Shown: piece by piece, positions 1 to 64,000 of the stretch
Layout of the letters: each line of letters starts with the position of its first letter
How positions within the stretch are numbered: position 1 is the stretch's first letter
The notes under the pieces: model-generated
Seen by the model: the letters and a program-made list of their open reading frames with translations, nothing else
Told to the model about the DNA's origin: nothing
Databases searched by the model: none
Position numbers and translations under genes: made by a program
From: Azolla caroliniana
Lineage: Eukaryota > Plantae > Polypodiophyta
Length of the DNA stretch: 64,000 bases
Assembly (NCBI GenBank): GCA_043228905.1
Contig: JBHGNT010000022.1
Coordinates: forward strand, 8,618,001 to 8,682,000
Reading direction: 5' to 3'

Positions 1-815
1 GATTTAGTATGCAAGCGTTCTGGAAATAAGCAAGATTTTTGTGATCACTGAAGACGATGACCTGGTGAGGAAGGCCCTCTAAGAAGTGCCACCATTGCAC
101 AAACAAATCAACGATGACTAATAACTCCTTGTCATGTATCTCGTAGTTGATTTCTGCGGCACCAAATTTGCGCAAGTGAAAGCCACATGATGTAACTCTT
201 CTTTATCTCCTTGTTGTGAAAGGATGCTACCGAGGGTGAAATATGACGCATCGGCCTCCATGATGAATGGTTTGTTTGTATCCACATGAGCTAGAATAGG
301 AGCTGATGTAAAGACTTTCTTAAGGTGCATAAAAGCCATGTCCACTTCATTGGACCAAAGAAATGACCGTCCCTTCTCTGTAAGTTGTGTGAGAGGCAAA
401 ATAATCTTCGAGAAATCCTGTATAAACTTGCAGTAGAAGTTAGGGAAGCCTAGTAAATGTTGCACATTTCAAAACGAACGTGGATTTTGCCACTCTAGCA
501 TGGTTTTGACTTTAGATGGATCCATGGAGATGCCTTTTGAGGAGATGACGTAGCCTAGAAATTACACTTGCTTGCAGTCAAAGCTACATTTTTCTAGTTT
601 GGCATAAAGACTATGCTCTCGGAGTCGTTTTAGTACTAATAGTACATGAGAATCATGCTCTTCCTGGGTTTTTGAATAAATCAATAGATCATCTAGATAA
701 ATGATCAAACAGATATCCAAGAGGTCTCTAAATATATCATTTGCCATGTGCTGGAAGACTGCGGACACATTGGTTAGACTGAATGGCATAACAGTATACT
801 CGAAGTGCCCATATC
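1..815 (-). mobile_element. Decayed RT/RNase H of a Tcn1-like chromovirus (Ty3/gypsy)
   Basis: RYGHFEYTVMPF, IIYLDDLLIYS, YAKLEKC and EADASYFTLGSIL motifs with frameshifts. Closely similar to the intact copy at 61723-64000. Confidence 0.9.
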
Positions 816-1862
816 GGATGAGAAGAATATCAATCCGTTTTTTCCGAGTTTCAGTGTCTAAAAGAAAAATTTGTTGCATTGAAACAAGAAAACCAATGAT
901 TCTTAGGGAATCTTCAACAAATCTCTTTACAAAAACAACAAACGTAGTTAGCGTTACGGGTGCAACAACTCAAAGCAACCATCATAGTGTTGCAACAATA
1001 GGGATCAAGTCCCCAAGGACTTCATAAAGAGCCCAAGATTGAACTTCCTGTGAAATTCGATGGAACACGATCACAATTCAGAGGATTCCTTAATCAGGTA
1101 CGTTTAGTCATTTAGATGCATCCTTCCCGATACCCCATTGATGCATCCCGAGTAGGCTTAATAGGCACATTGCTCAACGGCTCAACCCTGGCATGGTTCG
1201 CTCCGCTTTTAGGAAAACAATCTCCCTTGCTTAATAGCTTTGAAGACTTTATTAGCGAGTTTAAAGCCTGCTTTGGAGATACCGACAGCATCAAGACGAC
1301 GATCAACAAGATCCGAAGATTGCATCAAGGCGATCGTCTAGCCTCTACCTACGTGGGGGATTTCCATCTACTCACCTCAGATATCCCCTGGGATGATCAC
1401 ACACTAATGGAGCAGTTTCGCTACGGCCTGCGAAACGATGTTGAAGATTTAGTTTTAACCTTCCCCAAAGAACCAAAATCTCTCACAGAGGTAATCAGTC
1501 AAGCAGTTCGATGCGACAACTGCCTTTTTGAACGACGTTCGAAACGACAATTACAAATACCATGGACTAGGCTAGAGCCCACATATGCCTCAGTCGCAGC
1601 TAAACCGTTTGCACAAGATGTATCTCAGGCAAATACGCCGACACCGATGGAAATCGACACCATGCGTCGACGTGGCACGTTATCAGAAGAAGAAAAGAAA
1701 GGACAACGTGCAAATCGACTATTTCTTTATTATGGTGGACCAGGGCATATCACAATCAATTGTCCCCATAGGCCAAGAAGACAGATAAATCAAATGGTAG
1801 CCTATAATAAACCCGAGTCAATTCCCTTAGGACTGTCTGATAGTATTAATAGTACTAAGTAG
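811..1862 (+). mobile_element. Tcn1-like gag, inverted relative to the adjacent pol and LTR
   Basis: ORF 1116-1862 has LLNGSTLAWFAPL, FRYGLR, PTPMEID and a degenerate CCHC knuckle. A KFDGTRSQFRGF-type N-terminus lies at about 1050-1090. Confidence 0.88.
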
Positions 1863-1904
1863 CCCAAGTATCTCAAACAAATTTGAAATCCTTAGTCAAT
1901 TAGA

Positions 1905-2135
1905 GGAAGAGTAAATACAAAATAGCTATGAGGCTTAAGACTAGTGTTGAATCAATTTGGTTCGAAATAATGCCTTGTGCCTCCTTTTATAGTGTTGTTA
2001 AGAGTAGTCCTGAAGCTTCTAGAATGTTCCAGAGAAATCTGGAATATACATTAATTTTTGATAATAAAACTTAAATGAAAGAGCTTGACCCATATAACAT
2101 AAGGTCATGGGTTCGAGTCTTGCCATATCATGACA
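1905..2135 (-). mobile_element. Partial 5' LTR of the Tcn1-like element
   Basis: Aligns with 61445-61711 (GAAGCTTCTAGAATGTTCCAGAGAAATCTGG and GGTCATGGGTTCGAGTCTTGCCA) and ends CATGACA. Confidence 0.85.
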
Positions 2136-2732
2136 AATACCTCGACTGTGTATGTTCACCCTTATTTTTGGATGTTTCGTGTGTGTAGAGGCTATATGCC
2201 TCGATTACATCATTCGTTGGCTATGTTCTGCTACGATTTTTCTTAATATATGCATGTATGTAATCACGTTGTCGTGAAGATTCGTCACTACGTGCAGATC
2301 ATGAGGCGGAACCATCGGGGTTCTGGACCGGAAGGACTCGAAGTTTGCACAAGCTTTCGCGAGAAAGTATTTAAGATAGATTGAGAGAGAGAGAGAGAGA
2401 GATTGAGATAAAATAGAACGCTTGACTTTAGATTGAGAGAGAATAAGATTGAACTCTTGACTTTATATTTAAAGAACAAGATTGATACATCAATTGGAAA
2501 ACAAATTTCTTACTTTTAATTTCTTGATTCATACATCGCTTCCATTTTGCTAGATTCCTCCACTCTTTTATAGATGCCCCCATGCATATGGTGCATGTGG
2601 GGGTGCCAGACATGCACGGAATGCATGAAATGCATGCAATGCACATAATGCATGCTTGCCATGTCATCATCTAAGCTCTCACACATGAGAATTTACATGT
2701 AAAATTGGTGATAAAAATATAATTCTTAAAGA

Positions 2733-2810
2733 AATGATTTGGCTTAATGGTAAGCTTATAGACTCTCAAATTGGAGGTGCAAGGATCAAATCTTCACTTG
2801 CACTCCTTTT
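2733..2810 (+). promoter_or_regulatory. tRNA-like Pol III A/B-box cassette in LTR
   Basis: A box TGGCTTAATGG at 2740, D-stem GCTT/AAGC, degenerate B box GGATCAAATCT at 2783, then TTTT at 2807. Confidence 0.65.
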
Positions 2811-2845
2811 GAATATATATCTATATATATGTTTTTTATTATTAT

Positions 2846-4190
2846 TAGGAAATTGGTAAATTCACAATTTTTTTCGTATTTTCACAGTTTTTTTTTGGAA
2901 ATTGGTAAATTCACAATTTTTTTTCGTATTTTCACTGTTTCTTTTTTGAGTTCAGAAATATGATTATTTGCACTACAAATGAACGTAAAAATGAGTACAG
3001 TAAAGGTAATAATATGTTTTCCCTCTCCATACAATTCAATTCCTCCATGGAGTAAGCTCTAAGGTACTCTAGTTTAAGAGTAACTATAGATTTCATCACG
3101 ATCTTCACCCTTATTTCCTTATAAACCTCAAGGCAATACTCTATTCTTCCATTTACCTTGAGTCTATCCGAGATTACTAGAATCTTGTTACTGGTATCAC
3201 GATCCATTAGTTCCACATGTTGGATAGGGATGGAGCGGTATTCTGCACTGTAGTTTCATCATCTCCTATGGCCCCAATACTGCTAGTTAAATGTTTTGTA
3301 AGGTCTATGATCCTAAAGCTTTCGGTTAAGAGCCTCTTGTATTCCTCTTCCAACTTGAGCAATGCCTTATTGAGAGGGTCTTTCTTTATTATTTCTTGGT
3401 GGGGATTGAGGCACCTCGATTGTTCGAGTAGATCGTAGAGAATTTTGAGGCTATAAGGATCGAGAAGTTTGGTATCCACCAGAAACTCGAGGACCTTACC
3501 TAGCGAGTCCAATGATAGAGACAAGTTATCTGGGATCGTTTGAAGATGCCTTTCCATAGAGCAGACCATAGCCAAGTATTTGCGGAGGTCATGCTTCGGA
3601 TCTTCTGCATTTAGCGTCCATTGGATGGTGTGGATCGAATCGAAGATGTGGACGACCGACAATATGCTCTCAAGGGCAGCATCAAGTTGGGATGTGAGGG
3701 CTGATGCGACGGACACCTGGGTTTGGATGGGCTCCATGGCAGAGCGGAGGAAAGGGACCTTCTCCTCAATCCCAACCAGTCGGGTGTGAGTGCAAATTAA
3801 TCGTTCCTCGACCATTGCGAGCTCTCTGATGCGTTGGGAGAGGTTGGAGTGTGCAGAAATGAGAAGCTTATGTTGATGGTCATGGTCGACGGGGGGCATG
3901 GAGAATAATGACAAATCTGATGGTGATGATGGATGGATGGATGGATGGGGCATAACATGTACAAGTACTGGAATTTAGATGTCGCAAGCACTGCGTGGAT
4001 GCAGAGAATAATAGGCAAAGAGAGACAGACTAAGTCTCCTCGTCCAGACATGCGCAGAGGTGGCAGGGGCAGAGAGACATTATGAAATACACATGTGACA
4101 TGTCTATATGTATACAGAAATGGGATATATATAAATATACGGAAAAAACTGTGAAAATACAGAAAAAACTGTGAATTTACCAATTTCCTG
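2846..4190. mobile_element. Non-autonomous Pack-TIR DNA element (Pack-MULE-like) with a captured gene fragment
   Basis: About 50-bp TIRs, AGGAAATTGGTAAATTCACA... and ...TGTGAATTTACCAATTTCCT. Flanked by TTATTATTAT on both sides (TSD length ambiguous). Absent from the sister LTR at about 57480. Confidence 0.8.
3010..3953 (-). pseudogene. EXO70: Captured 5' fragment of an exocyst Exo70 gene (Exo70.3, G/I clade)
   Basis: DPKHDLRKYL, ALLKLEEEYKRLLTE and ISDRLKVNGRIEYCLEVYKEIR...LEYLRAYSMEELNCME resemble Exo70G/I. Frameshift near 3210; truncated near 3010. Confidence 0.75.
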
Positions 4191-5603
4191 TTATTATTAT
4201 ATATATATGTATTTTTACAAGGCGTTTCTCCGTTCGGTCGTCGTCTCACTGGCTCTGTCAGTCGTCGTTGCCGGATGATGCAAGTTGCCCTTGCCGAATA
4301 TGTTGATCGCCGTCGCCGGTCGCCGGTCGCCGTCGCCAGATGATACTAGATGATGCCGGTCGCCGGTCGCCGGATGTCGTTGCCGGATCCATCGCCGGTC
4401 TCGCCGGTCTCGCCGGCTCCGTCGGTCGTTGTCGCCGGATCCGTCCAAAACACATAGTTATATGCATTTGGGTACATCCATTCGTTAAGTCATACAACTT
4501 AACCTTTCTATGCTCCACACATAGACACAAAGATAATAACTTTTGCTCTGCCTTATATATGGTGGGATCCTTATTTTATTTTTCTCTTCTTCTTTGCAAA
4601 CTTCATACCCACATAACTTGACACTTAGATGTCTATTTCCTATGTAGTAAAATGCATTCAAAAGCCCTTCAAGACCTCTATCTGTTTGTACAAGATATTA
4701 AAATTATTTAAATAGTATCTTCACTATTATTGTTTTATATTTCATGAGAAGAACCACACTCGATTTCATATATTCCTCACAAGTTTCACACTATTGCAGA
4801 AAATCTTCGCGACAACGTGTATACGTATTCAATCGTATACATGTGATAAAACATAAATATGTGTATATTAATGTTTATTACGTGATTTGGTATATCGAAC
4901 ATTGTCCTTTTTGGGGAAAGGACCTTGGTGGCCGTCCTCACATTTTTGTCAAAATGGCATAGTCACCATTGGTCACTTCGATCTTACTATGCGTTATAAC
5001 AAAATGATCATAGCCACACTGATGATGAGAGCGTAGGGCCTGACCCAGTTCAAGTGAGGTCACTCCTATGACACATGCATCCCTCCCTCATTACATGGTT
5101 ACGATGCCACCATGAGATCATCATTACGAAAGGCATTAGTAATGATGTAACCATGTGATGGGCCACGTGTGCCTACTACGAAAAGAGGGCTTGTGTGGCT
5201 TGACCATGAGGTGGCACATTGGGGTATGGCATCATAATGATGAGCCTTGAGGTTGGGTAATGTACCAACATAGTTTTCTTGTTAACGAGGGGAAAATAAG
5301 GTTTCTTGCCACATATGTTTTCATTTAAAAAACATATATGGGCAAATTCCTTCACATATCTCTCATACGCATAAACATTAAACTTTCAAAAGGATGAAAC
5401 CATTTGGTTAGCTCAATTTTTTAATACATTTGTGCTTGAGGTCTCGAGTTCAAATATGACCAAGACCATACAACATTGTTGATACATATGACTATAAAAC
5501 ATGTTTAGACTTGAGTTCTAAGTGCACTTCAGGGTCCTAATAATAGGACATATAGAGTCAAAACCACATGGGTGGGCACATAGACATAGTTTATTGTTAA
5601 CAT

Positions 5604-31671: not shown

Positions 31672-34188
31672 TCATTTTATATCGATGTCCTCTGTTTCAC
31701 ACTCACATTGTTTACAAAACTCTGGATTCAAAAACTTAGCCACAAATGTCCAAAGTTTGTATACATCTGCAAAAGTAGTAAATAAACCTACAGTTGACGT
31801 AACCACTCTAAGCTTGGGTGAGGTTTTATTATACATTGATTCACTAATGCTCAATTTCCGTTCAAGATGACCTTCTAACTCTAACCAAGATGCCTCATCA
31901 ATGTGAGTAAGCATTCTAGTTCCAATTGAAATATTATGTGTCTTAGCCAACTTCTGCACTAGCCCTGGTGCTATTAAAGTTTCACATTGATCAAATAAAT
32001 TGAATGCAATAGAAGCACCTCTATCATATTTCAACTTTGGACCATATATTTTTACCAATGGTTTGTAGGACTTACTTGATACAAGATGTTGAAGCTTGAG
32101 CATTGAATTTACAAGCCAATTGATCAAAAACATCATCCTATCATTGATTCTATTCAAACCAAGTGCATCTGCATGGTTAAGTCCTCTACAATATATTTTT
32201 GGTTCCTTCCTATAAACCTCAGATACATCGTCCAATACATGACTTTGCTCTTCCTCGTTGTATGATTCATCTTCATCATATAAAGATGATGAGAAATCTA
32301 ATTCATCATCATAGTTTGATGATGAACCCTCACTCCGATTGTGAGTAAACGATGCATTCCTTTTAAATAGAGGTTGAGAGAAGGCGTCCAACCCTCCCAA
32401 AGTTACATTATTCAACGACCTTCCATAATTACGAATGTCATTCTTGTATTCATGACTACGAGATGCCATAAGTGTGGTCCTCTCATGGATTCTCTTTCGA
32501 GGATTATGAATAGGCATCAAATCTAACTCATGCCTCGAAGACTCCATATCAGTCAATACACTCTCTTTCGAAGATGTCTCACCAAGTTCAAATGTTGATA
32601 AATGTGTGGACTGCAAATTATGATAATCATATAATTGATTATCACTACCCTCAACACTATCTTTGTATAAATTGTGCACCAATTCAGTTGCATTGATATC
32701 CTTTGTTCGATTCCCACTATTTCCGAGAGGTACGTTGCACTCATTGAGGTCTTGGGAAATAAGTTGTCCATCTTGGGATGGGGAGAGATGCATCACCCTT
32801 ATGGTACATTCATCCTCCGAAGGATATTCATTTTCTCGTGTTTGACAGATCCGTCCCGAGAACGTCGCTACTACTTCGGCCGGCCTCATTTGAATTGGAT
32901 GATGAACAAGATTCTCTTTTTCCATAATAGCATCAGACATATCATCATCATTCATAATGTTATTGAGGGGTGCAACAAGCCTTACAATATTATTATCCCA
33001 ATTATTTTTGCCCCTAGATGAAGAAGAACAATTAGTAGATAATATACCTATGGATGAGTTCTTGACAAAGAGGCAACAAAACCCAGTCGGATCTGAGCCA
33101 AACGATTTATAAAAGGACGTGACGATGAAGTCAGGTGTGAAAAGAGAAATCCCAAGGGCATCCATATCCTTGGGGCCAAGAGCCGAGGCATCTAAGAGCA
33201 CGTGCCAACCATTCTCTTGCGCGAATGACATCCATTGGTATGAATACTTGGAACCCGAGGCTTGAGATTGAACCGGGAAAACGAACAACCCTTTCTCTTC
33301 TGATAGTATGGATTCAGTGTGTGGCGAGCAAAGCATGAAGGACGGGAAAGAGAACGTTGCATGGAGTGTCTTGGACACTCCTTTCCTTATTGCAATCTCC
33401 TCTAGGACACCTACAGACGCGCTCTCGTAATCAAACATTGTGAACAGACAAGTGTGCTCGACGTCAAACGGGTACGACTCTCCTATTAACTCGAAACACG
33501 AGGTTTTGCGAGGTGCGAACACCATACTGTATTCGCTCTCGTGGATATTAAGGAACCGGAAGACACGCATCCGTATGTCGGTCTCGACGGTTCCTTCCGC
33601 AGGGTCGGTGTTGAGATTCATTCGGGTCAGGGCGTCACGGAGGTTAGTCGGACATTGGGCTCCGGCGACCGAGTCCCAGTGTGAAAGCAAAAATGAAGAG
33701 GAGGTGGAATCCAGCTCTTGTTGCAGGTGAGTGAAGAGGCCAAACCCACTATAATCCAAGCATACATTATTGCCACTGCTTTTGTTGTTGCAGGATTGGC
33801 CTCCCAGAGCATCATCACTATGAAATTGCCCACTTACTTCTTCTTCTTCTTCTTCTTCATTAGATCTTGTGTTGAATTCCTCTTGTCGGAGCTCGTCGAT
33901 TAGCCGAGTGTGGAGATAGGCTGGATACAGGGTTGTGAAGCTATGGAACTCCTCTTCCTCACATGGGATAGAATGAGGGTTAGTGATGATGTAGGAGGTT
34001 ATTGCATTAGAGTTTCCAATTTCTCCATTGAAGCTCAGTAATGGGTCTATAATATGATCTCTTCTCGTTCTTCTTCTTCTTCTTCTTCTTCTTCTGCTGC
34101 TGCTCCTGCTTCTTCCTCTTAGCTTTGTGCATGAATTGAATTTCAGAATAAATGATCTTATGAACGCTAATGGAGAGAAGAAACCCAT
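31672..34188 (-). CDS. PLP-dependent transferase superfamily protein (plant Moco-sulfurase-like family without MOSC domain), single exon, 838 aa
   Basis: VCLDYSGFGLF, ESYPF, GLFVFPVQS...SGSKYSYQWM, WHVLLDASALGPKDMDALGISLF.PDFIVTSFYK and CRGLNHADALGL...LINWL...LVKIYGPK...RGASIAFNLFD. Confidence 0.93.
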   Translation of the reverse strand: MGFFSPLAFIRSFILKFNSCTKLRGRSRSSSRRRRRRRRRTRRDHIIDPLLSFNGEIGNSNAITSYIITNPHSIPCEEEEFHSFTTLYPAYLHTRLIDELRQEEFNTRSNEEEEEEEVSGQFHSDDALGGQSCNNKSSGNNVCLDYSGFGLFTHLQQELDSTSSSFLLSHWDSVAGAQCPTNLRDALTRMNLNTDPAEGTVETDIRMRVFRFLNIHESEYSMVFAPRKTSCFELIGESYPFDVEHTCLFTMFDYESASVGVLEEIAIRKGVSKTLHATFSFPSFMLCSPHTESILSEEKGLFVFPVQSQASGSKYSYQWMSFAQENGWHVLLDASALGPKDMDALGISLFTPDFIVTSFYKSFGSDPTGFCCLFVKNSSIGILSTNCSSSSRGKNNWDNNIVRLVAPLNNIMNDDDMSDAIMEKENLVHHPIQMRPAEVVATFSGRICQTRENEYPSEDECTIRVMHLSPSQDGQLISQDLNECNVPLGNSGNRTKDINATELVHNLYKDSVEGSDNQLYDYHNLQSTHLSTFELGETSSKESVLTDMESSRHELDLMPIHNPRKRIHERTTLMASRSHEYKNDIRNYGRSLNNVTLGGLDAFSQPLFKRNASFTHNRSEGSSSNYDDELDFSSSLYDEDESYNEEEQSHVLDDVSEVYRKEPKIYCRGLNHADALGLNRINDRMMFLINWLVNSMLKLQHLVSSKSYKPLVKIYGPKLKYDRGASIAFNLFDQCETLIAPGLVQKLAKTHNISIGTRMLTHIDEASWLELEGHLERKLSISESMYNKTSPKLRVVTSTVGLFTTFADVYKLWTFVAKFLNPEFCKQCECETEDIDIK

Positions 34189-34189
34189 C

Positions 34190-34300
34190 TTCTTCTTCTT
34201 CTTCTTCTTCTTCCTTCTTCTTCTTCTTCCTTCTTCTCCTCTTTTGGATAAAGGCTAAAGCTACATTAGTACAAATACATACATACATACATACATACAT

Positions 34301-54034: not shown

Positions 54035-57000
54035 TGTTGAGAATCAAGCTCAACTTGGTCTAGTGTGTGAACTCACCTTGAGAGTGAAGAGACACCTCAA
54101 CGGTCAAGAGTCACCATTATGTCACCACTTTGTATTCTAGCATTTAGTATGAGTCATAGAATCATATTCTATGACACATAACTTATGAGCTTTCACATTC
54201 CCCATGCTCCATGAGCCTAGTAGTTAATGAAGAGAGAGGGTGACTACATAAAGCACCCTCCTCCCACCTTGTAAAATGTTGGGTCTTTCTCCTTTGCTAA
54301 TAGAACTTTATCTTGCGTATTCTTTGTGTATTACTCCTTGTCTCTCTCATTCTCTCTCTCTCTCTCTCTCATACACACACAGTTCACACCTATTTCCGCT
54401 TCACAAGAATCCATCTCTTGATTTTTTACATGGTATTAGAGCAATTTGGTAGCTCGATCTAGCCCATTCGCCTCATCGTGATCATGTGTTGTGCTCTACG
54501 CCGACGACCAAGAACCGGCTCATAGCTATCATAGCTTTGCTACATAGCTCGCATTCGAAGAGAGAAGAAGAAGAAGAAGAATCGATATAATGAATACTCA
54601 AATGGGGAGTGCTCTCCCTACCGAGAAGTTGGATCGAAACAACTTCGCATCTTGGGAGTACAAGATGCACCAATACCTTGTCGGACAAGGCTATTGGAGC
54701 TACATCAAAGGAGCGCATGAAGACCGACCCGCCGAAGTGGCTCACGGATACGCAACATGGGAGCAAGCCGCAAGCCGTGTGATGTATTGCTTGGCTACAT
54801 GTGTTCATGATCACATGCTCGGTTACATTCGAGAAGCCAAGACGCCGAAGGAAGCATGGGAAAATCTACGAAAGATTTTCGCCGCCAACACGACCGCGAG
54901 GAAGCTTCAACTCCGCCAAGAGTTGAACAACATTCAACAAAGGGACATGTCCATCACGACATACACCTTGAAGATCAAGGAGCTTTGCGACTCGCTCGGC
55001 TCAATAAGCATAAGTATAGATGATGATGAGATGGTGCAAATATGCCTCGGCGGCCTCGCACCACGGTTCGGCGCGATGAGAACCGCCGTTCTAGCACGGG
55101 AGAAATCTCCCTCCTTCTTCGAGCTCCAATCAATGCTATTGGTCGAAGAAAACCATGTGCGTACAAGGAGCTATGAGTCGGAAGGCCACATGCTCTACAC
55201 GCACTCTAATGGAGGAAGAGGACGTGGACGGGCGAGAGGCCGATTCGGCCATGGACAAGGCAGACGAGGTCCGACCTACGACAACAACTCCCAATTTCGG
55301 CCGCAAAACGGAGGCCAAGGAGAAACCTTCGCAAGAAGGGGGAGCTTCCGCTTTGGCCTGAGCCGTCAAAACGCAACCCAATGCGAATATTGCGGAAAGC
55401 TCGGCCACCACGAAGAAGAGTGCCGAAAGAAGATGCGTGAATCGGCTTCCACAAGCCGACAACTCACGAATTACGCGCACAATTCCGACTACGAAGAGTA
55501 TAGCGGAATGTATGGGCACAACTCCGACTACGAGGATCATGGCGGAATGTACGCATACAACTCTGACCGTGGCGGAATGTTCATGATGAAACATAGAGCA
55601 AACTCTATGTCGGCCTCTACCTCAACTAGTGCCCTCAATCCGGAGGACGTATGGTTTGTTGACTCCGGAGCCTCAAACCATATGACATCCCACAAAGAAT
55701 GGTTTCTCGAACTTCGAGAGCCGGAGCGACGTGGTTATGTCGAAACTGGAGATGACACTACGCACCTGATTAGGCACATCGGCAATGTTCTATTCGGCGA
55801 AAGAGGTAAGCAAACATATATGAAAAATGTCTTGCATGTTCCCACCATCACAAAGAATTTGGTCTCGGTCGGCCAAATGGTTGAGCAAGGGATGCAAGTA
55901 CGATTTGACCAAGAAGGGTGCTTCATCGAAAAAGAAGGCCGAATCATCGCACGCGGAAGAAGAGAGGGCCGGATGTTCATTCTCGATTCGCATGAGATGA
56001 AATCTGCCATGTTCGCGAAAAGCACGAAAGCCGACTCCGACATAGACCTATGGCATAAGCGAATCGGCCACATCAATCTCAACAAACTCAAAGCAATGAA
56101 ATCGAAAGGAGTTGTCATCGGACTCCCGACATTCAGAGAGACGGAGATTGAAGGTGTATGCGAAGCGTGCCAATTCGGCAAGCAACACCGACACCCATTT
56201 CCGAAAGAGTGAAATGTGAGCAAAGGCGTACTCCACGTAATTCATTCCGATGTATGGGGTCCGGCCCAAATGACGACATTCAGCGGATGCTGATATTACG
56301 TGCTATTCATCGACGACTTTTCGAGGCACACTTGGATCTACCCGATGCGGCAAAAGAGCGAAGTGTTCGGACACTTCCAAAATTTCAAGAATGAAGTCGA
56401 GAAAGCCACGGGCTGGCATGTACGATGCCTTCGATCGAATGGCGGCAAGGAGTACTTCTCGGACGATTTCACGACGTATCTCCGAAAGGAAGGAATTCGG
56501 CGAGAATTCACTTGCCGACACACTCCGCAATAAAACGGAGTAGCCGAGCGCAAAAATTGGCACATCCTCGAAGTAGCACGGGCCATGATGAACGAGAAGC
56601 ATATGCCCAAGTCATATTGGGCCAAAGTGGCAAATACGGCCGTCTACCTAATGAACCGGTGCACAACATCCGGCGTGCACGAGGTCACTCCGCACGAAAG
56701 ATTCTTCGGAAAGAAGCCGAACTTATCACATATCCGGATATTCGGTGCGATAGTGTACGTGCACATCCCCGACGAGAAGCGTCAAAAACTTGACCCGAAG
56801 TCGGAGAAATGTATCCTCGTAGGATACTCACTGGAACAAAAGGGGTACAAGTGCTACAACCTCTCAACTCGAAAATCACGGGTAAGTCGAGACGTTGTCT
56901 TTGACTAGTCCGCATCCTGGTACGCTGTCGTGAAGATCTGTCACTACGCGCGGATCGTGAGGCGGAACCGCCGGGGTTCTGGACCGGAAGGATTCAAAGT

Positions 57001-57387
57001 CGGTACAAGCTTTGGCGTAAGCTTTAGCGAGAAAGTACTTAAGATAGATTGGGAAAGAGAGAAGTTGAGATTAAACGATCGAGAGAGATTGATTGAACTT
57101 TTAACTTTAGATTTAAGAAACAAGTTACACGATCAATTTGATAACGAATTTCTTCTTCTTAATTTCATAACAAAAAAAACCGTCCTTTTTCTCCTCCCCC
57201 TTCCTTCTTTTATAGATGCTCTCATGCATATGATGCATGTGAGGGTACAAGACATGCATAAATTGCATGTTTGCCATTTGGTGCTTATGTATTACATGTG
57301 GTGCGTGATAACCATGACACTCATTTTAGCTCTCATGTATGAGAATTTATATGTAAAAGTACAATGATAGAAATATAATTTCAACTA

Positions 57388-57460
57388 AATAGCATGGTGT
57401 AATGGTAAGCCAATTGACTCCTAACTTGGAGGTGCAAGGTACAAATCCTTACTTTCCCTC
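57388..57460 (+). promoter_or_regulatory. tRNA-like Pol III A/B-box cassette in LTR
   Basis: TGGTGTAATGG at 57395 and GGTACAAATCC at 57438, with T-stem AAGG/CCTT. Confidence 0.65.
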
Positions 57461-57504
57461 CTTGTATATGTAAATATTATATATTTATATATTTATTTAT
57501 CTAG

Positions 57505-57800
57505 ACGTCGGTTCGTCGGATGCCGTCGGTTACCGGTGCCTTGTCGGATGCCGTCGTCGGTTGCCGCCGGATACCCGTGCCGTCGTCGAATGTCGTCGGT
57601 TACCGGTGCGTCGCCGGATGCCGTCGGTTACCGGTGCCTTGTCGGATGCCATCGTCGGTTGCCGCCGAATACCCGTGCTGTCGTCGAATGTCGTCGGTTA
57701 CCGGTGCGTCGCCGGATGCCGTCGTCTCACCGGCGCCGGATACCGGTTTGCCGTCGGATGCTGCCGGATCACCGACTCCATCGCTGGTCCGGTTTTGGTT
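57505..57800. repeat. CpG-dense array with an approximately 98-bp duplication inside the LTR
   Basis: CGGATGCCGTCGGTTACCGGTGCC begins at 57517 and 57615. Confidence 0.85.
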
Positions 57801-59681
57801 GGCCAAAACCCTTTACGAGTAGCTAGCCCACCTCCACTCTTAGTTCAAGTTACCTTGAACTCTCTATGCTCCACACATAGACACAAAGATAATATCTTTT
57901 GCTCTACCTTATATATAATGAGAGCCGTATTTGTCGTGCCTATGTGGGATATCTCACAATTTTCTCTTTTCCTTTCACAAACTTTATACCCTCATATCTT
58001 GACATTTAGTTGTCCGTTTCTCGTGTAATAAAGTGCATTCGAAACCTCCATCATTTTGTACTTAGATATTAAATTTATTTAAAATGTTATCTTCATAATT
58101 ATTGTATTATGTGATTCATACTCGATTTCGTACGTTTTATGGGATTTTCACACTATTGCCGAAAATCTTCACGACAACGCACCAGAGACAACTCCAACTC
58201 CGACTCCGCTCGACCCGGAATCTGCCGATCAAGAGATTGGGGATGAAGATTGCCCTACGCGCATGATTGAAGAAAGTCCGACCACGACCCGACTGAGCGG
58301 ACCACAAGAGCCTTTGAGCGATCAAAGCACATTACGGCCTAGCCCGAAGATGGACAAAGGCAAGGCGAAAATGGCGGAATATGAAGAAGATCGCTTCGAC
58401 GACGATGAATCGACTCACTCACTCGACAGTGAATTCGGCGGTTTCGAGGTACCAATCGGAGCAAAGAAAGCCCTCATCTCTACAAATGAAAAGCTCCGCG
58501 GATCCACTCATGAAAAGAACCCCGTAAGCCGATTCGGCTACAACGATTATATGGTATACCATTACGCCTTTATGATGAAGGTAGCGACAGTACGGGAGCC
58601 AAAAACCTTTTCGAAAGCCGCGAAGGACCCGCGATGGATCGAAGCAATGAACGAAGAGATGCAGGCACTACGGAAGAACGAGACATGGGATCTCGTTCCC
58701 ACCTCACCGCACAAAAAGGCGATCGGATGCAGATGGATCTACAAAGTGAAGTACAATGCGGACGGTTCCGTCAACCACTACAAAGCTCGACTCGTAGCGA
58801 AAGGATACGCTCAGACACATGGCGTTGACTACGAAGAAACCTTTGCCCCGGTGGCAAAGATGACGACGGTGCGGACCGTAATTGCGATTGCCGCGGCGAA
58901 AGGGTGGCACCTCCATCAAACGGACGTCAAGAACGCCATTCTACAAGGCGAATTAGAAGAGGAGGTGTACATGATCCAACCACCCGGCTTCAACTCGAGA
59001 ACTCATCCAAAAGCCGTATGCTGACTCAAGAAGCCACTCTACGGCCTCAAGCAAGCACCACGTTGTCGTGCCTTTCGGCTCCGGATCGTTTGCATGAGTC
59101 GGGTGGGAACCACCGGGGTTTTGGACTAGGAGAAAGAAGAATATGAGATGAGGCTAGTAATGAATAGATTATTAGAAAGAGAGATAGAAATTTCGTGAAT
59201 CCCACGAGTGTATTGTATTCGATTAATCAATATTTAGATAAGAATATGTATTTAGATTGAAAGAAAGATATAAGAAACTTGTGAATCCCACAAGTATAGA
59301 TTATATTATTTTCGTGAATCCCACGATTATATTAATCGGTTGGTGTTTTCGGAAATATATCCAATTTCCAAATATTTCACACACACATTACATTGTGCTC
59401 CCCATCCTTATGTAGTGATGGGAGAGACTAAGCATAGCTACATGCTTTTTTTCTAATATGTTCATGCACACTAAATGTGCATGTGATGCTTTTCTAATCC
59501 TTGCTTTTATTTGCTAAATATAGTGCTCATGCACGCTAGATGTGCATGAGTCACTTTTTAGTTGCTTGCGTTTTTCTATAAAATATTCACGCACTCTAAA
59601 AAATGCATGATTTACCTTTTTAATAAAGGTAGGCGCAAATAAAGCACTTATAGTTATTAAATCTATTTATAGAACACTAAA

Positions 59682-59755
59682 GATCAGGTAGCATAATGGT
59701 AAAGTTGAGGTTTGGCTACGTGGAGGTACAAGGTTCAAATCTTGCCCTATGCACG
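59682..59755 (+). promoter_or_regulatory. tRNA-like Pol III A/B-box cassette in LTR
   Basis: TAGCATAATGG at 59689 and GGTTCAAATCT at 59732. Confidence 0.65.
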
Positions 59756-59807
59756 TGATAAATATCTTGATATTCTTATTTTATTTATTTATATGTAATT
59801 AAATCGG

Positions 59808-61241
59808 TTATATTATTTTTACTTTTTCACGTAGTGTACGAAATACACTACGACACTCGCCCCCTCCGAACCCGTACATCCTCCGGTATGTGCCGAAGTT
59901 GCCGATGCTCGTTGTCTCCCCTTCATCCTCCGTTTGTCCCGCTATGTCAACTTTGTCTCTCCATTTTGAGTAGACCCATTCTTTCCACCCGAACCATTGT
60001 TGCCATCCGATCCACCATATTCTTTGTTCTCTCTCGTCATATTCTTGGCCCTTGTCATTCGTGGTAGTGTCTTTTACTGGCCTCTTTCTTGTCTTCATCA
60101 ACCTTGACTTTTTTCCGGATCGCTCTCGTCCGATCGACTTTCGGTTTGATCGGCTTCCGATCGGATTCGTATTCGGCCGAATCGGAATCGGTTGTTCGGT
60201 TTCGATTGAGTCGGTCTCCTTCCAGCCCGGTTTCGATCTATCGGTTTTGGTTTCGGTTGGCTTTCTTTTTCTCGTTTTCACCAGCCTCGACCGGTCCAAC
60301 CTCCGGTTGAGTCGGATTAGCTTCTTTTCGGATCGGTTTCGTCCGATCGGCTTTCGGCTAGGTCGGCTTCCATCCATATTCGCGTTCGGCCAAGTCAGAC
60401 TCAGTCGATCGGTTTTGACCGAGTCGACCCCTTTTCGGGTCGGCTTTCTTTCGGGTCGTCTTTCGGCCGAATCCTCATTCGCCCGGTTCGGCTTTCGTTT
60501 GTGTCGTCTTTCGGCCGAATTCTCTTCCTTTCGGTTCGGCTTTCTTTCGGGTCGACTTTTGGTCGAATCCTCTTTTACCCGGTTCGGCTTTCTTTCGGAT
60601 CGGAATCCCGTCCGGATCACCTTCCATCCAAACCGGCTTCCGACTTTACCTTTCTTGCTGCCACCTCCCGTCTCTCCGGTCTCACGTTGCTTCTCAGACA
60701 CAACCGCCGAAGTCTCTAGAATTAGTGGGTAGGAATCCTCGGTATTATCATCCTCCATTATTTCACCCATAGCCATATTCTCGGCTATCTCTCCGTCGTA
60801 TGCATCGACTTCGACCTTTGTTTTCTCTCCGCCACCTTCCGTCTCTTCGGTCTCACGTTGCCTTTCGAACGCAACCGCCGGAGTCTCTCGAATCAGTGGT
60901 GGGGAAGTCTCGATATGGCCATCCGTCGTTGATTCGTCCATAGCCACCTTCGATTCGATGTCATCTTTTGTGGTGACCTCCTCAATCAAGTCCTCTTTGC
61001 TCTCTTTCACTGCATCAATTATGCAAACATCAATTATGCTTACCCCTTTTTCACCCGATGTTTCGGACACTTGTATTCCGAAATCTTCTTCTACACTTGG
61101 GTTATCGGCCTTATCCTTCACCGTCGTTCTTTCGCAAGACAAGAGGGTAGCTTGTTTTACACCCTCTTCCGTCACACCATCATGTTGTATTTCGGCCTTC
61201 ATATCGGCTCCATCGTTTGTCTTCAATCGACCATCCTTCAT
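59808..61241 (-). CDS. Retroelement-encoded low-complexity ORF (acidic half, RKPNR repeats, Trp-rich motif); N-terminus probably cut by an insertion
   Basis: 477 open codons running through the PPT into the LTR, with no pol motifs. Confidence 0.5.
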   Translation of the reverse strand: MKDGRLKTNDGADMKAEIQHDGVTEEGVKQATLLSCERTTVKDKADNPSVEEDFGIQVSETSGEKGVSIIDVCIIDAVKESKEDLIEEVTTKDDIESKVAMDESTTDGHIETSPPLIRETPAVAFERQRETEETEGGGEKTKVEVDAYDGEIAENMAMGEIMEDDNTEDSYPLILETSAVVSEKQRETGETGGGSKKGKVGSRFGWKVIRTGFRSERKPNRVKEDSTKSRPERKPNRKEENSAERRHKRKPNRANEDSAERRPERKPTRKGVDSVKTDRLSLTWPNANMDGSRPSRKPIGRNRSEKKLIRLNRRLDRSRLVKTRKRKPTETKTDRSKPGWKETDSIETEQPIPIRPNTNPIGSRSNRKSIGRERSGKKSRLMKTRKRPVKDTTTNDKGQEYDEREQRIWWIGWQQWFGWKEWVYSKWRDKVDIAGQTEDEGETTSIGNFGTYRRMYGFGGGECRSVFRTLREKVKII

Positions 61242-61244
61242 CGG

Positions 61245-64000
61245 TGTCAGGAATCAGTAGTAAGACGGAGACGGAATTAGTACTAAACGAAGGATTAGTA
61301 CTACAGAGAAGGGATTAGTACTAAACGAAGGATTAGTACTATGAGGGGTGTAGAACTTCTTGAGAGAGAAGGAAGAAGTGAGCGAGACAGAGAGACAGAG
61401 AGAGAGAGAGAGAGAGAGTAATGATGAGAGAAATATATGTATTACGTGAAGAGAATGTACAACTGTGGCTAGAAGGCTTAAGACTGGCGTTGAACCAATT
61501 TGGTTCAACATAACGCCTAGTGCCCTCTTTTATAGTATTTCTAAGAGTAATCCTGAAGCTTCTAGAATGTTCCAGAGAAATCTGGAATATACATCAATTT
61601 CTAAAATAAAACATAAATGAAAATAATATCCTACAACTTATAATGTATAGTCTAATGGTAAGACCTCGACCCATGTAGCATAAGGTCATGGGTTCGAGTC
61701 TTGCCATGACACTATCCCCCCCTTAAAAACGACGAGTGTCACGAGTCGTTTTGGATTGAGGACCCGGTTTGTGTGGATATCGACGATGGAAGTCTTCGAG
61801 AAGAGCACGAGCATTGGTCACATTCTCGATCGGCTCCCAAGTACGCTCGCTGGGACTATATCCTAGCCAATCGACTAGATAGTAGAGCTTGTTGCGAGTA
61901 ATCTTGGAATCAAGGATGGCGGCAACCTCGTACTCAGGTCCATCTTCAAGCTCGATCGGGGGTGGAGGTGGTGGAATACGGCCTGGAATGGTGCTTTCGC
62001 GATAGGGTTCGAGGAGAGAACTATGGAACACCGGATGAATCCGAAGGTGCGGAGGGAGTTCGAGCCGAAAAGCAACATCATTAATCTTCCCGATAATACG
62101 GAAAGGACCTAACCGCCGATAGTCCAACTTCTCACATGGGCGAGTAGTCTTGACGTGTCGTCGAAGCAGCCATACCCGATCGCCAATGTCAAAACTGGAT
62201 GGAAGTCGATGACGATCCGTATAAACCTTGTGTGCTTGTTGAGCTTGCTGGAGCTGAGTAGATAGATCCGCTTGTATCTTGTGTAATCGCTCCAAACGAT
62301 CCTCTGCGCAAGGATTCGTGGGCAATTCTGGGGTTTCAACTACACACCATCGGGGATGACAACCTGTGTAAGCATAAAATGGGGTAACCTTTGTTGAGGA
62401 GTGGACGGAGTTGTTATATGCAAACTCGGCGAAATGGAGAATATCTGCCCAATCATCTTGATGGTAACTTAGAAAACACCGAAGATACTGCTCCAACGTT
62501 TGATTTGTTCGTTCTGCCTGGCCGTCTGTTTGCGGGTGGTAGCCGGAGGAAAGGTTACAAGTCACTTGAAGCATTTTAAAGAAGTGCTTCCAAAACTTCG
62601 AAACGAATTGGGGTCCACGATCGCTGATGATGCTATCAGGGAGGCCGTGATGCCGACATACTTCGCGCATAACAATCTCGGCGGTTCCTTCACTGGATAT
62701 TTCTTTAGTACATGGTAGGAAATGAGCCATCTTCGTATAGCGATCTACGACTGTTAAGATCGCATCGAATCCCTTAGACATCGGGAGGTCCGTGATGAAA
62801 TCTAGAGCAATGGATTGCCACGGCTTACTCGGAATTGGTAATGGTTCTAACAAACCATATGGATGATGCCTTGGCATTTTTGCCCTGCAACATGTATCAC
62901 AAGTCCGAACAAAATCTTCGACAAATTGTCGCATGTGGGGCCACCAGAATGAGCGTTGTACTAAATCTAATGTTTTAGTACTACCAAAATGCCCAGCAGT
63001 ATATGTATCATGACAGCTTTGGACTACTTGAAGGCGACCAGTACCATTAGGAACATACAAGAGTGTCTTAAAAAATAGTAATCCATCATGGTATTGGAAT
63101 TGCCGATAATCCGTACCTGGTTGTTGCGATTCCGAACAAGATGCTTGAGAGGGATCGATTTGTTTTAGAATGGCTTGGGCGAATGCATCCGTCTTCAAGT
63201 CCTCCCGTATGGTATCGATAACGCGAGAATCCATGGGCATGTCGAAGATCTGTGCTGCTTGTAGTCGTGCCGGTCCCAAGATGACTTGCTTTTGGTTATC
63301 GAAGGCTGGCTCGCCGGGACGCGGTGCTAGATATGAACGTCGTGATAATGCATCCGCCTTCCCTTGGTGCTTCCCCGGTCGATAAGTAATTTTGAAGTCG
63401 AAACGTGTGAGGAAGTGGGCCCACCGGGCTTGACGTCGATTCAGCACACGAGCATCCTGAAAGTAGGCAAGGTTCTTGTGGTCACTGAATACAGTGACTG
63501 GGTGAGGGGATCCCTCTAGGAAATGCCTCCATTGCATAAATGAATCCACTATTGCCAAGAGTTCCTTATCATGTATCTCGTAGTTGATTTCGGCGGCGTC
63601 AAACTTTCGTGAATGAAAAGCCACAGGATGTAGCTTCTCGTCATTACCATGTTGTGACAGAATGCTCCCCAATGCGAAATCCGATGCGTCAGCTTCGATA
63701 ATGAATGGTTTTTCTGGATCGACATGACCCAGAATTGGAGCTGATGTAAACGCCTTTTTCAGATTCTCGAAAGCCAAGTCTGTTTCTTCAGACCAAATGA
63801 ACGCTTGCCCCTTTCTGGTAAGCTGTGTGAGAGGCAGAACGATCCTTGAGTAATCTTGTATGAACTTCCGGTAAAAATTGGCAAAGCCTAGAAAACACTG
63901 CACATCCCGCACCGAACGCGGAGTCTGCCAATCCACCACCGTTTTGACTTTAGCTGGGTCCATGGAGATGCCTTCTGAGGAGATGACATAGCCGAGAAAT
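61245..64000 (-). mobile_element. Tcn1-like chromovirus 3' half with an intact RT-RNase H-IN-chromodomain frame and 3' LTR
   Basis: ORF of at least 746 aa ending at 61723, with EADASDF, SIALDFIT, SDRGPQF, GPF and EYEVAAILDS...YLVDWLGY...TWEP. PPT GGGGGGGATAG at 61722-61712 and LTR 61245-61711. Confidence 0.97.
61641..61711 (+). promoter_or_regulatory. tRNA-shaped Pol III cassette forming the LTR terminus
   Basis: A box TAGTCTAATGG at 61648, D-stem GTCT/AGAC, variable loop AGGTC and B box GGTTCGAGTC at 61691. Confidence 0.75.

What the first reader, a model, noticed from the sequence alone, without database searches (positions are those of the whole stretch)
61641..61711. A tRNA-shaped Pol III promoter forms the outer end of a chromovirus LTR, antisense to the element
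Seen: the first 71 nt of this Tcn1-like LTR, read on the opposite strand, follow tRNA geometry. There is an A box TAGTCTAATGG, a paired D-arm GTCT/AGAC, a 17-nt anticodon-arm-sized gap, AGGTC and a B box GGTTCGAGTC, and the LTR terminal CA falls at tRNA positions 71-72. The acceptor and anticodon stems do not pair, so it is not a tRNA. It points away from the LTR TATA (61535-61527). A Pol III transcript would cross the PPT and stop at TTTT near 61749, giving about 110 nt. The older copy at 2081-2135 keeps the B box but has lost the A box. Known: Cassandra TRIMs carry 5S-type Pol III promoters in their LTRs, and TFIIIC-bound boxes can act as chromatin barriers. Inference: a built-in insulator or antisense small-RNA unit in an autonomous retrotransposon. 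I know of no description of this for Tcn1 elements, but I cannot search.
Basis: partly seen in the sequence, partly recalled or inferred. Interest (0 to 1): 0.85.

Follow-up and report, generated by a model that had tools for sequence, protein, structure and literature searches.

The report
Backward tRNA-type promoter inside retrotransposon ends
The end-repeat of an abundant, protein-coding plant jumping gene carries a conserved, backward-facing look-alike of a tRNA gene's promoter, and a second repeat family in the same DNA carries a similar one; it likely recruits the tRNA-gene transcription machinery to shield the element's own promoter, but no function has been tested.

Summary
Mostly confirmed. 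The U3 end of this autonomous chromovirus LTR (61245-61711) holds an antisense A box (61648) and B box (61691) at tRNA spacing. It is not a tRNA (ARAGORN, Rfam negative) and has no SINE tail or target duplication. In public DNA contigs of this very abundant family the B box shows no variant at 6% or more, and common A-box variants fall on loose positions. The closest relative keeps the whole unit; a more distant one keeps only the B box. Two details are not family-wide: the D-stem and the terminal CA at positions 71-72. Conservation is not unique: another U3 stretch is equally quiet, and an independent tRNA matrix gave weak window-wide significance. Best reading: a TFIIIC/Pol III site kept by selection as a boundary (0.5); function untested. 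Closest known: Helenus TRIMs (non-autonomous, sense) and foamy-virus LTR Pol III hairpins. The scan noted related LTR-borne units in other genomes, none for Tcn1.

The parts
61641..61711 (+). tRNA-shaped unit at the U3 outer end of the LTR, antisense to the element; folds as one long hairpin
61648..61658 (+). A box (type 2 Pol III promoter consensus, recalled)
61691..61700 (+). B box; no variant at 6% or more in the runs and none among the 40 rows shown
61245..61711 (-). 3' LTR (467 bp) of the chromovirus, TGTCA...TGACA ends
61712..61724 (-). polypurine tract
61527..61534 (-). TATA box of the LTR (Pol II promoter, inferred)
61554..61573 (.). four-unit heat-shock-element-like motif (nGAAn repeats; consensus recalled) between TATA and the unit
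   Evidence: high-depth bin
61749..61752 (+). first T4 run after the unit: possible Pol III stop, for 3' LTRs only
61726..63999 (-). open pol frame: RNase H, integrase, SH3, chromodomain with aromatic cage; runs off the window
1906..2135 (-). older LTR copy of the same family; B box kept, A box deleted, longer terminal form
59689..59742 (+). similar antisense A/B unit in the 3' LTR (59064-59855) of a second LTR family
57395..57448 (+). similar unit, decayed B box, in a solo LTR (56926-58176, 4-bp duplication) of the second family
2740..2793 (+). similar unit, decayed B box, in a solo LTR (2270-4814, 4-bp duplication) of the second family

Best explanation
The LTR carries a conserved, antisense, tRNA-shaped A/B-box unit, likely captured from a tRNA gene or SINE head, which likely binds TFIIIC and would act as a boundary that keeps the element's own heat-shock/TATA promoter open. 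Shown: position, orientation, spacing, family-wide presence and the pattern of change. Inferred steps: (1) TFIIIC binds the B box 11-38 nt from the element's outer edge; (2) with an intact A box it would load TFIIIB on the AT-rich stretch at about 61595-61640, between the unit and the heat-shock element, making a back-to-back Pol III/Pol II pair; (3) because U3 is copied to both ends in each cycle, every new insertion would carry this site at its outer 5' edge, where it could hold off silent chromatin; this would matter to an element whose chromodomain type is reported to aim at H3K9-methylated chromatin (MAGGY; passage in PMC3350952). Pol III cannot make the genomic RNA from it, since it faces the wrong way. 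A short hairpin RNA may be a by-product in the young subfamily.
For: B box without variants at 6% or more in X1, X8, X16, against 11 of 18 polymorphic sites just upstream of the A box and 5 of 8 in the loop. Common A-box variants (61649 A>G 68%, 61652 C>A 62%, 61651 T>C 7% in X16) fall on R, N and Y positions; the two that break the consensus stay under 1% in these three runs. L015 (81% aa) keeps both boxes, its B box with one C>T change. L006 (60% aa over the integrase end) keeps AGGTC plus a B box in the same place and orientation while A box and hairpin register have decayed (score 40.5 against background 22.6 +/- 4.4, max 36.5). The B box lies 11, 16 or about 30 nt from the end in different forms, so it is not simply the integrase attachment site. 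Three LTRs of a second family carry antisense units with the same 43-nt spacing upstream of their TATA side, with weaker folding (z -0.3 to -2.4). All 5 strict-pattern hits in the window and in 665,406 bases of 106 related loci lie in LTRs.
Against: No occupancy, chromatin or stranded RNA data. 61610-61629 is as invariant as the boxes (0 of 20), so conservation is not specific, and one search missed variants near the edges of its stretch that one search showed (61604, 61705). The phage-tRNA matrix gives 7 of 60 controls as good. The hairpin explains much of the same conservation (paired 6 of 50, unpaired 9 of 21 polymorphic). 62 of 64 related LTR starts lack an antisense B box at this place, including L007 at 56% aa, so the unit is dispensable for the clade. 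Two of three second-family B boxes are decayed. A-box substitution G>A at 61650 reaches 9% in X1.
Confidence: 0.5

Rival explanations
1. The unit is a Pol III gene for a 70-110 nt hairpin RNA, antisense to U3 and the PPT, that would be diced into small RNAs tuning the element's own activity or a host target, as in foamy-virus LTR cassettes.
For: Hairpin z -5.81, 0 of 200 shuffles, stronger than all 22 phage tRNAs (z -0.1 to -3.9) and than any other 71-nt window along the LTR. Variation gathers in the loop and outside the stem (Fisher p 0.008, sites not independent). On six units the hairpin keeps 73.8% of cells paired (0 of 500 shuffles) against 52.6% for the cloverleaf (273 of 500). SFV LTR hairpins depend on A and B boxes (PMC3993851, passages).
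Against: No terminator at the hairpin's base; the first T4 lies 38 nt beyond the LTR and exists only for 3' LTRs. Folding is weaker in L015 (z -2.2) and the register is lost in L006. The tested structure came from the window's copy, and pairs changed on both sides are not beyond shuffles (63 of 500).
Confidence: 0.2
2. The constraint is structural in reverse transcription: the hairpin just after the PPT (in genomic RNA or minus-strand DNA) helps plus-strand start, strand transfer or packaging, and the boxes are left over from a tRNA-derived origin.
For: The element-sense strand folds too (z -4.85); the hairpin abuts the PPT; stem positions are quiet. A tRNA-complementary stretch in HIV-1 U3 that aids strand transfer is recalled, not found.
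Against: Plant Tcn1 elements are predicted to self-prime, without a tRNA primer to bridge (PMC6317226, passages). In the second family the unit lies 105 to over 700 nt inside the LTR, away from the PPT. L015 barely folds in element sense (z -0.4). A-box positions outside the core stem still follow the promoter consensus.
Confidence: 0.15
3. A neutral relic: a tRNA or SINE head landed in an ancestral U3, was trimmed to the end and looks conserved only because the family expanded recently.
For: Another U3 stretch is as quiet; the older copy lost the A box; most related elements lack the unit; window-wide significance is model-dependent.
Against: Neighbouring sites differ between subfamilies while the boxes do not; the B box survives at 60% aa identity where the rest of U3 hardly aligns; the same arrangement in a second family.
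Confidence: 0.15

Closest known systems
Helenus TRIMs ('TRIMp3'; Kojima 2024, PMC10886601; parts 1-4 of 6 of the text, further passages and supplement passages read)
   Same: tRNA-derived, non-functional-tRNA sequence inside LTRs with conserved A and B boxes; proposed origin by SINE insertion into an LTR; one plant family (Selaginella). The paper also says that 'not a few LTRs' in Repbase hold tRNA-like parts, and follows up only TRIMs under 1000 bp.
   Different: Helenus is short and non-coding, and the unit is in sense orientation in the LTR sequences shown in the supplement passages, so it can drive the genomic RNA. Here the element is autonomous, has a TATA box, and the unit is antisense at the U3 edge. 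The paper expects autonomous partners to use Pol II promoters.
Cassandra and Ajax TRIMs (as described in PMC10886601)
   Same: Pol III promoter in LTRs
   Different: 5S type (A, IE, C boxes), non-autonomous, drives the element's own RNA
Simian foamy virus LTR miRNA cassettes (Kincaid et al. 2014, PMC3993851; passages read)
   Same: Autonomous retroelement with A/B-box Pol III units in the LTR that overlap hairpins
   Different: Shown to be transcribed and processed, with terminators at the hairpin base; animal retrovirus; here no RNA shown and no terminator inside the LTR
Tcn1 clade chromoviruses (PMC2864245, PMC6317226, PMC3350952; passages read)
   Same: Ty3/gypsy pol order, group I chromodomain with aromatic cage, short LTR with TG...CA, PPT right after the pol stop
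   Different: No tRNA-like U3 unit in the passages returned for these papers; self-priming could not be checked here
tRNA genes, SINEs and lone B-box sites as TFIIIC-bound chromatin barriers (recalled; PMC8136502 and PMC4041453 seen as search listings only)
   Same: B box next to a Pol II promoter at a chromatin boundary
   Different: Here carried by the mobile element itself; binding not tested

Membership tests
tRNA gene | cloverleaf with acceptor, anticodon and T stems | tested here: not met
   (anticodon stem 33%, acceptor 41% of cells paired over six units)
tRNA-derived SINE (independent insertion) | own target-site duplication and 3' tail | tested here: not met
   unit runs straight into the LTR end and PPT; present family-wide
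Type 2 Pol III promoter | A box and B box at tRNA spacing | tested here: met
   (consensus recalled)
Type 2 Pol III promoter | TFIIIC binding and Pol III transcription | not testable with these tools
   only contigs among the 23 runs listed
Helenus / TRIMp3 | tRNA-like sequence with A/B boxes in the LTR | tested here: met
Helenus / TRIMp3 | non-autonomous, no protein coding, about 300-1300 bp | tested here: not met
   758-codon open pol frame
Helenus / TRIMp3 | unit oriented to transcribe the element | tested here: not met
   antisense to pol, PPT and TATA; sense in the Helenus LTRs shown
Chromovirus (Ty3/gypsy) | RNase H - integrase - chromodomain order | tested here: met
Tcn1 clade | group I chromodomain with aromatic cage | tested here: met
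   Y, W, Y present in residues 690-715; Chlamyvir and some Galadriel share it
Tcn1 clade | phylogenetic placement with named Tcn1 elements | tested here: inconclusive
   closer to unnamed fungal-type elements than to L103/L106, but no named reference in the tree
Tcn1 clade | self-priming site after the 5' LTR | not testable with these tools
   5' LTR lies outside the window; no genome held
Foamy-virus-type Pol III miRNA cassette | hairpin over A/B boxes with terminator at its base | tested here: inconclusive
   hairpin met; nearest T4 is 38 nt past the LTR

The most novel reading that the evidence does not exclude
Autonomous plant LTR retrotransposons of separate lineages carry a tRNA-type promoter in U3 as a standard part: a portable, self-made chromatin boundary (with or without an antisense hairpin RNA) set back to back with a heat-inducible Pol II promoter, which lets elements that insert into silent chromatin stay able to fire. 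It would also seed thousands of TFIIIC sites across the host genome.
Probability: 0.3. Interest if true: 0.8.

Novelty: new variant of a known kind. Interest (0 to 1): 0.55.

Why it matters
How heterochromatin-targeting retrotransposons escape silencing is an open question. A conserved B box at the element's edge gives a direct test (factor occupancy, one point mutation). It extends tRNA-type LTR modules from tiny non-coding TRIMs, where they are thought to make the genomic RNA, to coding elements where they cannot, so another function is needed. It also warns that SINE and tRNA-pseudogene counts in such genomes can come from LTRs.

Tried and rejected
No whole genome is held, so genome-wide LTR alignment was replaced by laying public contigs. 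RNA: of 23 runs listed one is on record as RNA (share 0.04) and all are contigs; X15 and X16 were laid, 8 and 371 contigs, but X16 is probably DNA and contigs give no strand or start: no evidence either way. Rfam on this unit and on three others: only chance-level matches, the miRNA ones reflecting the hairpin. Relaxed ARAGORN is noise (217 calls). Pattern scans: viral contigs 5 and 16 loci; of the first five, L002 is a phage tRNA cluster and none matched the integrase end; L112-L127 were not examined. Genome contigs 0. Related-locus scans gave 80, 26 and 7 loci, mostly distant; the metagenome scan covered 2 of 64 parts. The host group could not be narrowed beyond Streptophyta-like. Cloverleaf rejected. 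tRNA-primer bridging considered and set low because Tcn1 is predicted to self-prime. L027 (sense) and L078 (antisense, 114 nt in) have B-box-like words that were not followed up. The first tree attempt failed and was rerun on 33 sequences, 21 loci picked by hand. Literature: ten searches found no description of an antisense tRNA-type unit in autonomous plant LTRs; the library lacks most subscription papers and Repbase reports, and supplements of the Tcn1 papers were not read, so this is not proof of absence.

Full report
Setting. The window is repeat-rich plant-like DNA (a P450 nearest to Streptophyta clusters). From 63999 to 61726 the - strand has an open 758-codon frame with RNase H, integrase, SH3 and chromodomain; the chromodomain has the three cage aromatics. 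A PPT follows, then a 467-bp LTR (61245-61711) with inverted five-base ends. This fits a Tcn1-like chromovirus; a named placement was not possible. No genome is held.

Observation. The A box (61648) and B box (61691) are there, 43 nt apart, on the strand opposite to the element, in the first 71 nt of U3. ARAGORN and Rfam see no tRNA. A strict A/B pattern built from recalled consensus has 2 hits in the window and any hit in 1 of 200 shuffles; a loose one has 7 against 3.15. A matrix from 22 phage tRNAs ranks the site first, but 7 of 60 controls match it. So single-site significance depends on the model; the case rests on conservation and recurrence.

Family-wide state. Public contigs show a very abundant family: 3428, 3700, 2653 and 896 contigs laid for four runs (40 of 120 variant rows shown). 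The narrower one search lists 34 rows at 6% or more in any run. Counting sites polymorphic in X1, X8 or X16 (X15 left out for its 8 contigs): 11 of 18 at 61630-61647, 4 of 11 in the A box, 2 of 16 after it, 5 of 8 in the loop, 0 of 8 before the B box, 0 of 11 in the B box, and 0 of 20 at 61610-61629. Common A-box changes sit on loose positions; the two consensus-breaking ones stay under 1% in those runs. Caveats: contigs are weighted by depth and cannot be phased; one search missed edge variants seen (61604, 61705), so zeros near its edges (61610-61629, 61702-61711) are less sure; and the boxes are not shown to be quieter than all of U3.

Relatives. Of 113 related loci, 69 had a PPT plus LTR start and 64 at least 100 nt of LTR; 1 of 64 (L015, sister to the window's element, 81% aa) has the strict unit. 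A core B-box word in the first 150 nt occurs in 4 of 64: L015, L006, and two not followed up. L006 (60% aa) aligns to the unit above background, keeping AGGTC and the B box about 30 nt from its end but not the A box or the hairpin register. L007, sister group of L006, lacks it. The unit is therefore old but optional, and the B box outlasts the rest.

Hairpin. The 71 nt fold as one hairpin, -32.1 kcal/mol, z -5.81, and the element-sense strand at z -4.85. It is the strongest of 24 windows along the LTR and beats 22 real tRNAs; L015 gives -2.2, the older copy -1.3. Polymorphic sites: 6 of 50 paired, 9 of 21 unpaired. On six units the hairpin keeps 73.8% pairing against 52.6% for the cloverleaf, but it was derived from this copy and two-sided changes are not beyond shuffles. 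In the young family boxes and hairpin cannot be separated with these data.

Recurrence. The second strict hit (59689) lies in the 3' LTR of another family with longer LTRs and 4-bp duplications; two solo LTRs of it carry the unit at 57395 and 2740 with decayed B boxes. All are antisense, on the U3 side of the TATA and GA-repeat region, with the same 43-nt spacing and a shared A-box/D-loop word. A distant chromovirus LTR that looks angiosperm-type (label from recall), L103, has two such units in sense orientation upstream of its TATA. A strict pattern, widened by one base after L015 was seen, has 3 hits in 665,406 bases of 106 loci, all in LTRs.

Mechanism. Facing outward, the unit cannot make the genomic RNA. 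The part kept longest is the B box, the main TFIIIC site (established knowledge), at varying distance from the end, which argues against a mere integrase site. TFIIIB would land on the AT-rich stretch next to a four-unit heat-shock element and the TATA box. I put a TFIIIC-based boundary or promoter-opening role at 0.5, a Pol III hairpin RNA at 0.2, a structural role in reverse transcription at 0.15 and a neutral relic at 0.15. No step beyond sequence pattern is shown.

Known systems. Helenus TRIMs carry tRNA-type boxes in LTRs but are non-coding and, in the sequences displayed, sense-oriented; that paper notes other Repbase LTRs with tRNA-like parts without describing them. Foamy viruses have functional A/B-box hairpin units in the LTR (passages). 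Plant Tcn1 is predicted to self-prime (passages). A sugar-beet preprint mentions only the TRIM cases (passages). Ten literature searches found no account of this arrangement. The scan's own notes hold related LTR-borne or antisense tRNA-like units in other genomes, none for this sequence or for Tcn1; they are unchecked leads.

Verdict. A real, conserved LTR module; a new variant of a known kind; function open but directly testable. Interest 0.55.

Noticed in passing
window 61554-61573 and 2011-2030; L006 LTR: Four-unit heat-shock-element-like motif about 20 nt upstream of the LTR TATA, in one of the highest-depth bins; L006 has 3 three-unit matches. Suggests a heat-inducible family.
   Followed up: partly
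window 59064-59855, 56926-58176, 2270-4814: Second LTR family with 4-bp target duplications (ACGT, ACGC) and an antisense tRNA-shaped unit; its 3' region has a 481-codon frame without Pfam match (59811-61253, -), into which the chromovirus inserted.
   Followed up: partly
L103 4834-4888 and 5002-5054: Two sense-oriented tRNA-shaped A/B units in U3 of a distant chromovirus LTR; may point to a wider pattern in seed-plant LTRs.
   Followed up: partly
window 1-2135: Older chromovirus copy with gag (1116-1859) on the + strand while pol and LTR lie on the - strand: a rearranged copy.
   Followed up: no
window 2820-4200: Insertion with 57-nt inverted ends and a 255-codon frame, about 30 nt downstream of the B box of the unit at 2740.
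   Followed up: no
window 61726-61752: Short inverted repeat over the last pol codons, just before the T4 run, forming a second hairpin in the predicted 112-nt RNA.
   Followed up: no
window 61466-61510: Palindromic, high-depth stretch just downstream of the TATA, near the expected transcription start; could hold the self-priming sequence.
   Followed up: no
window 31675-34254 (-): 860-codon stop-free frame without Pfam match.
   Followed up: no
L027, L078: B-box-like words within the first 150 nt of two distant LTRs (one sense, one antisense).
   Followed up: no
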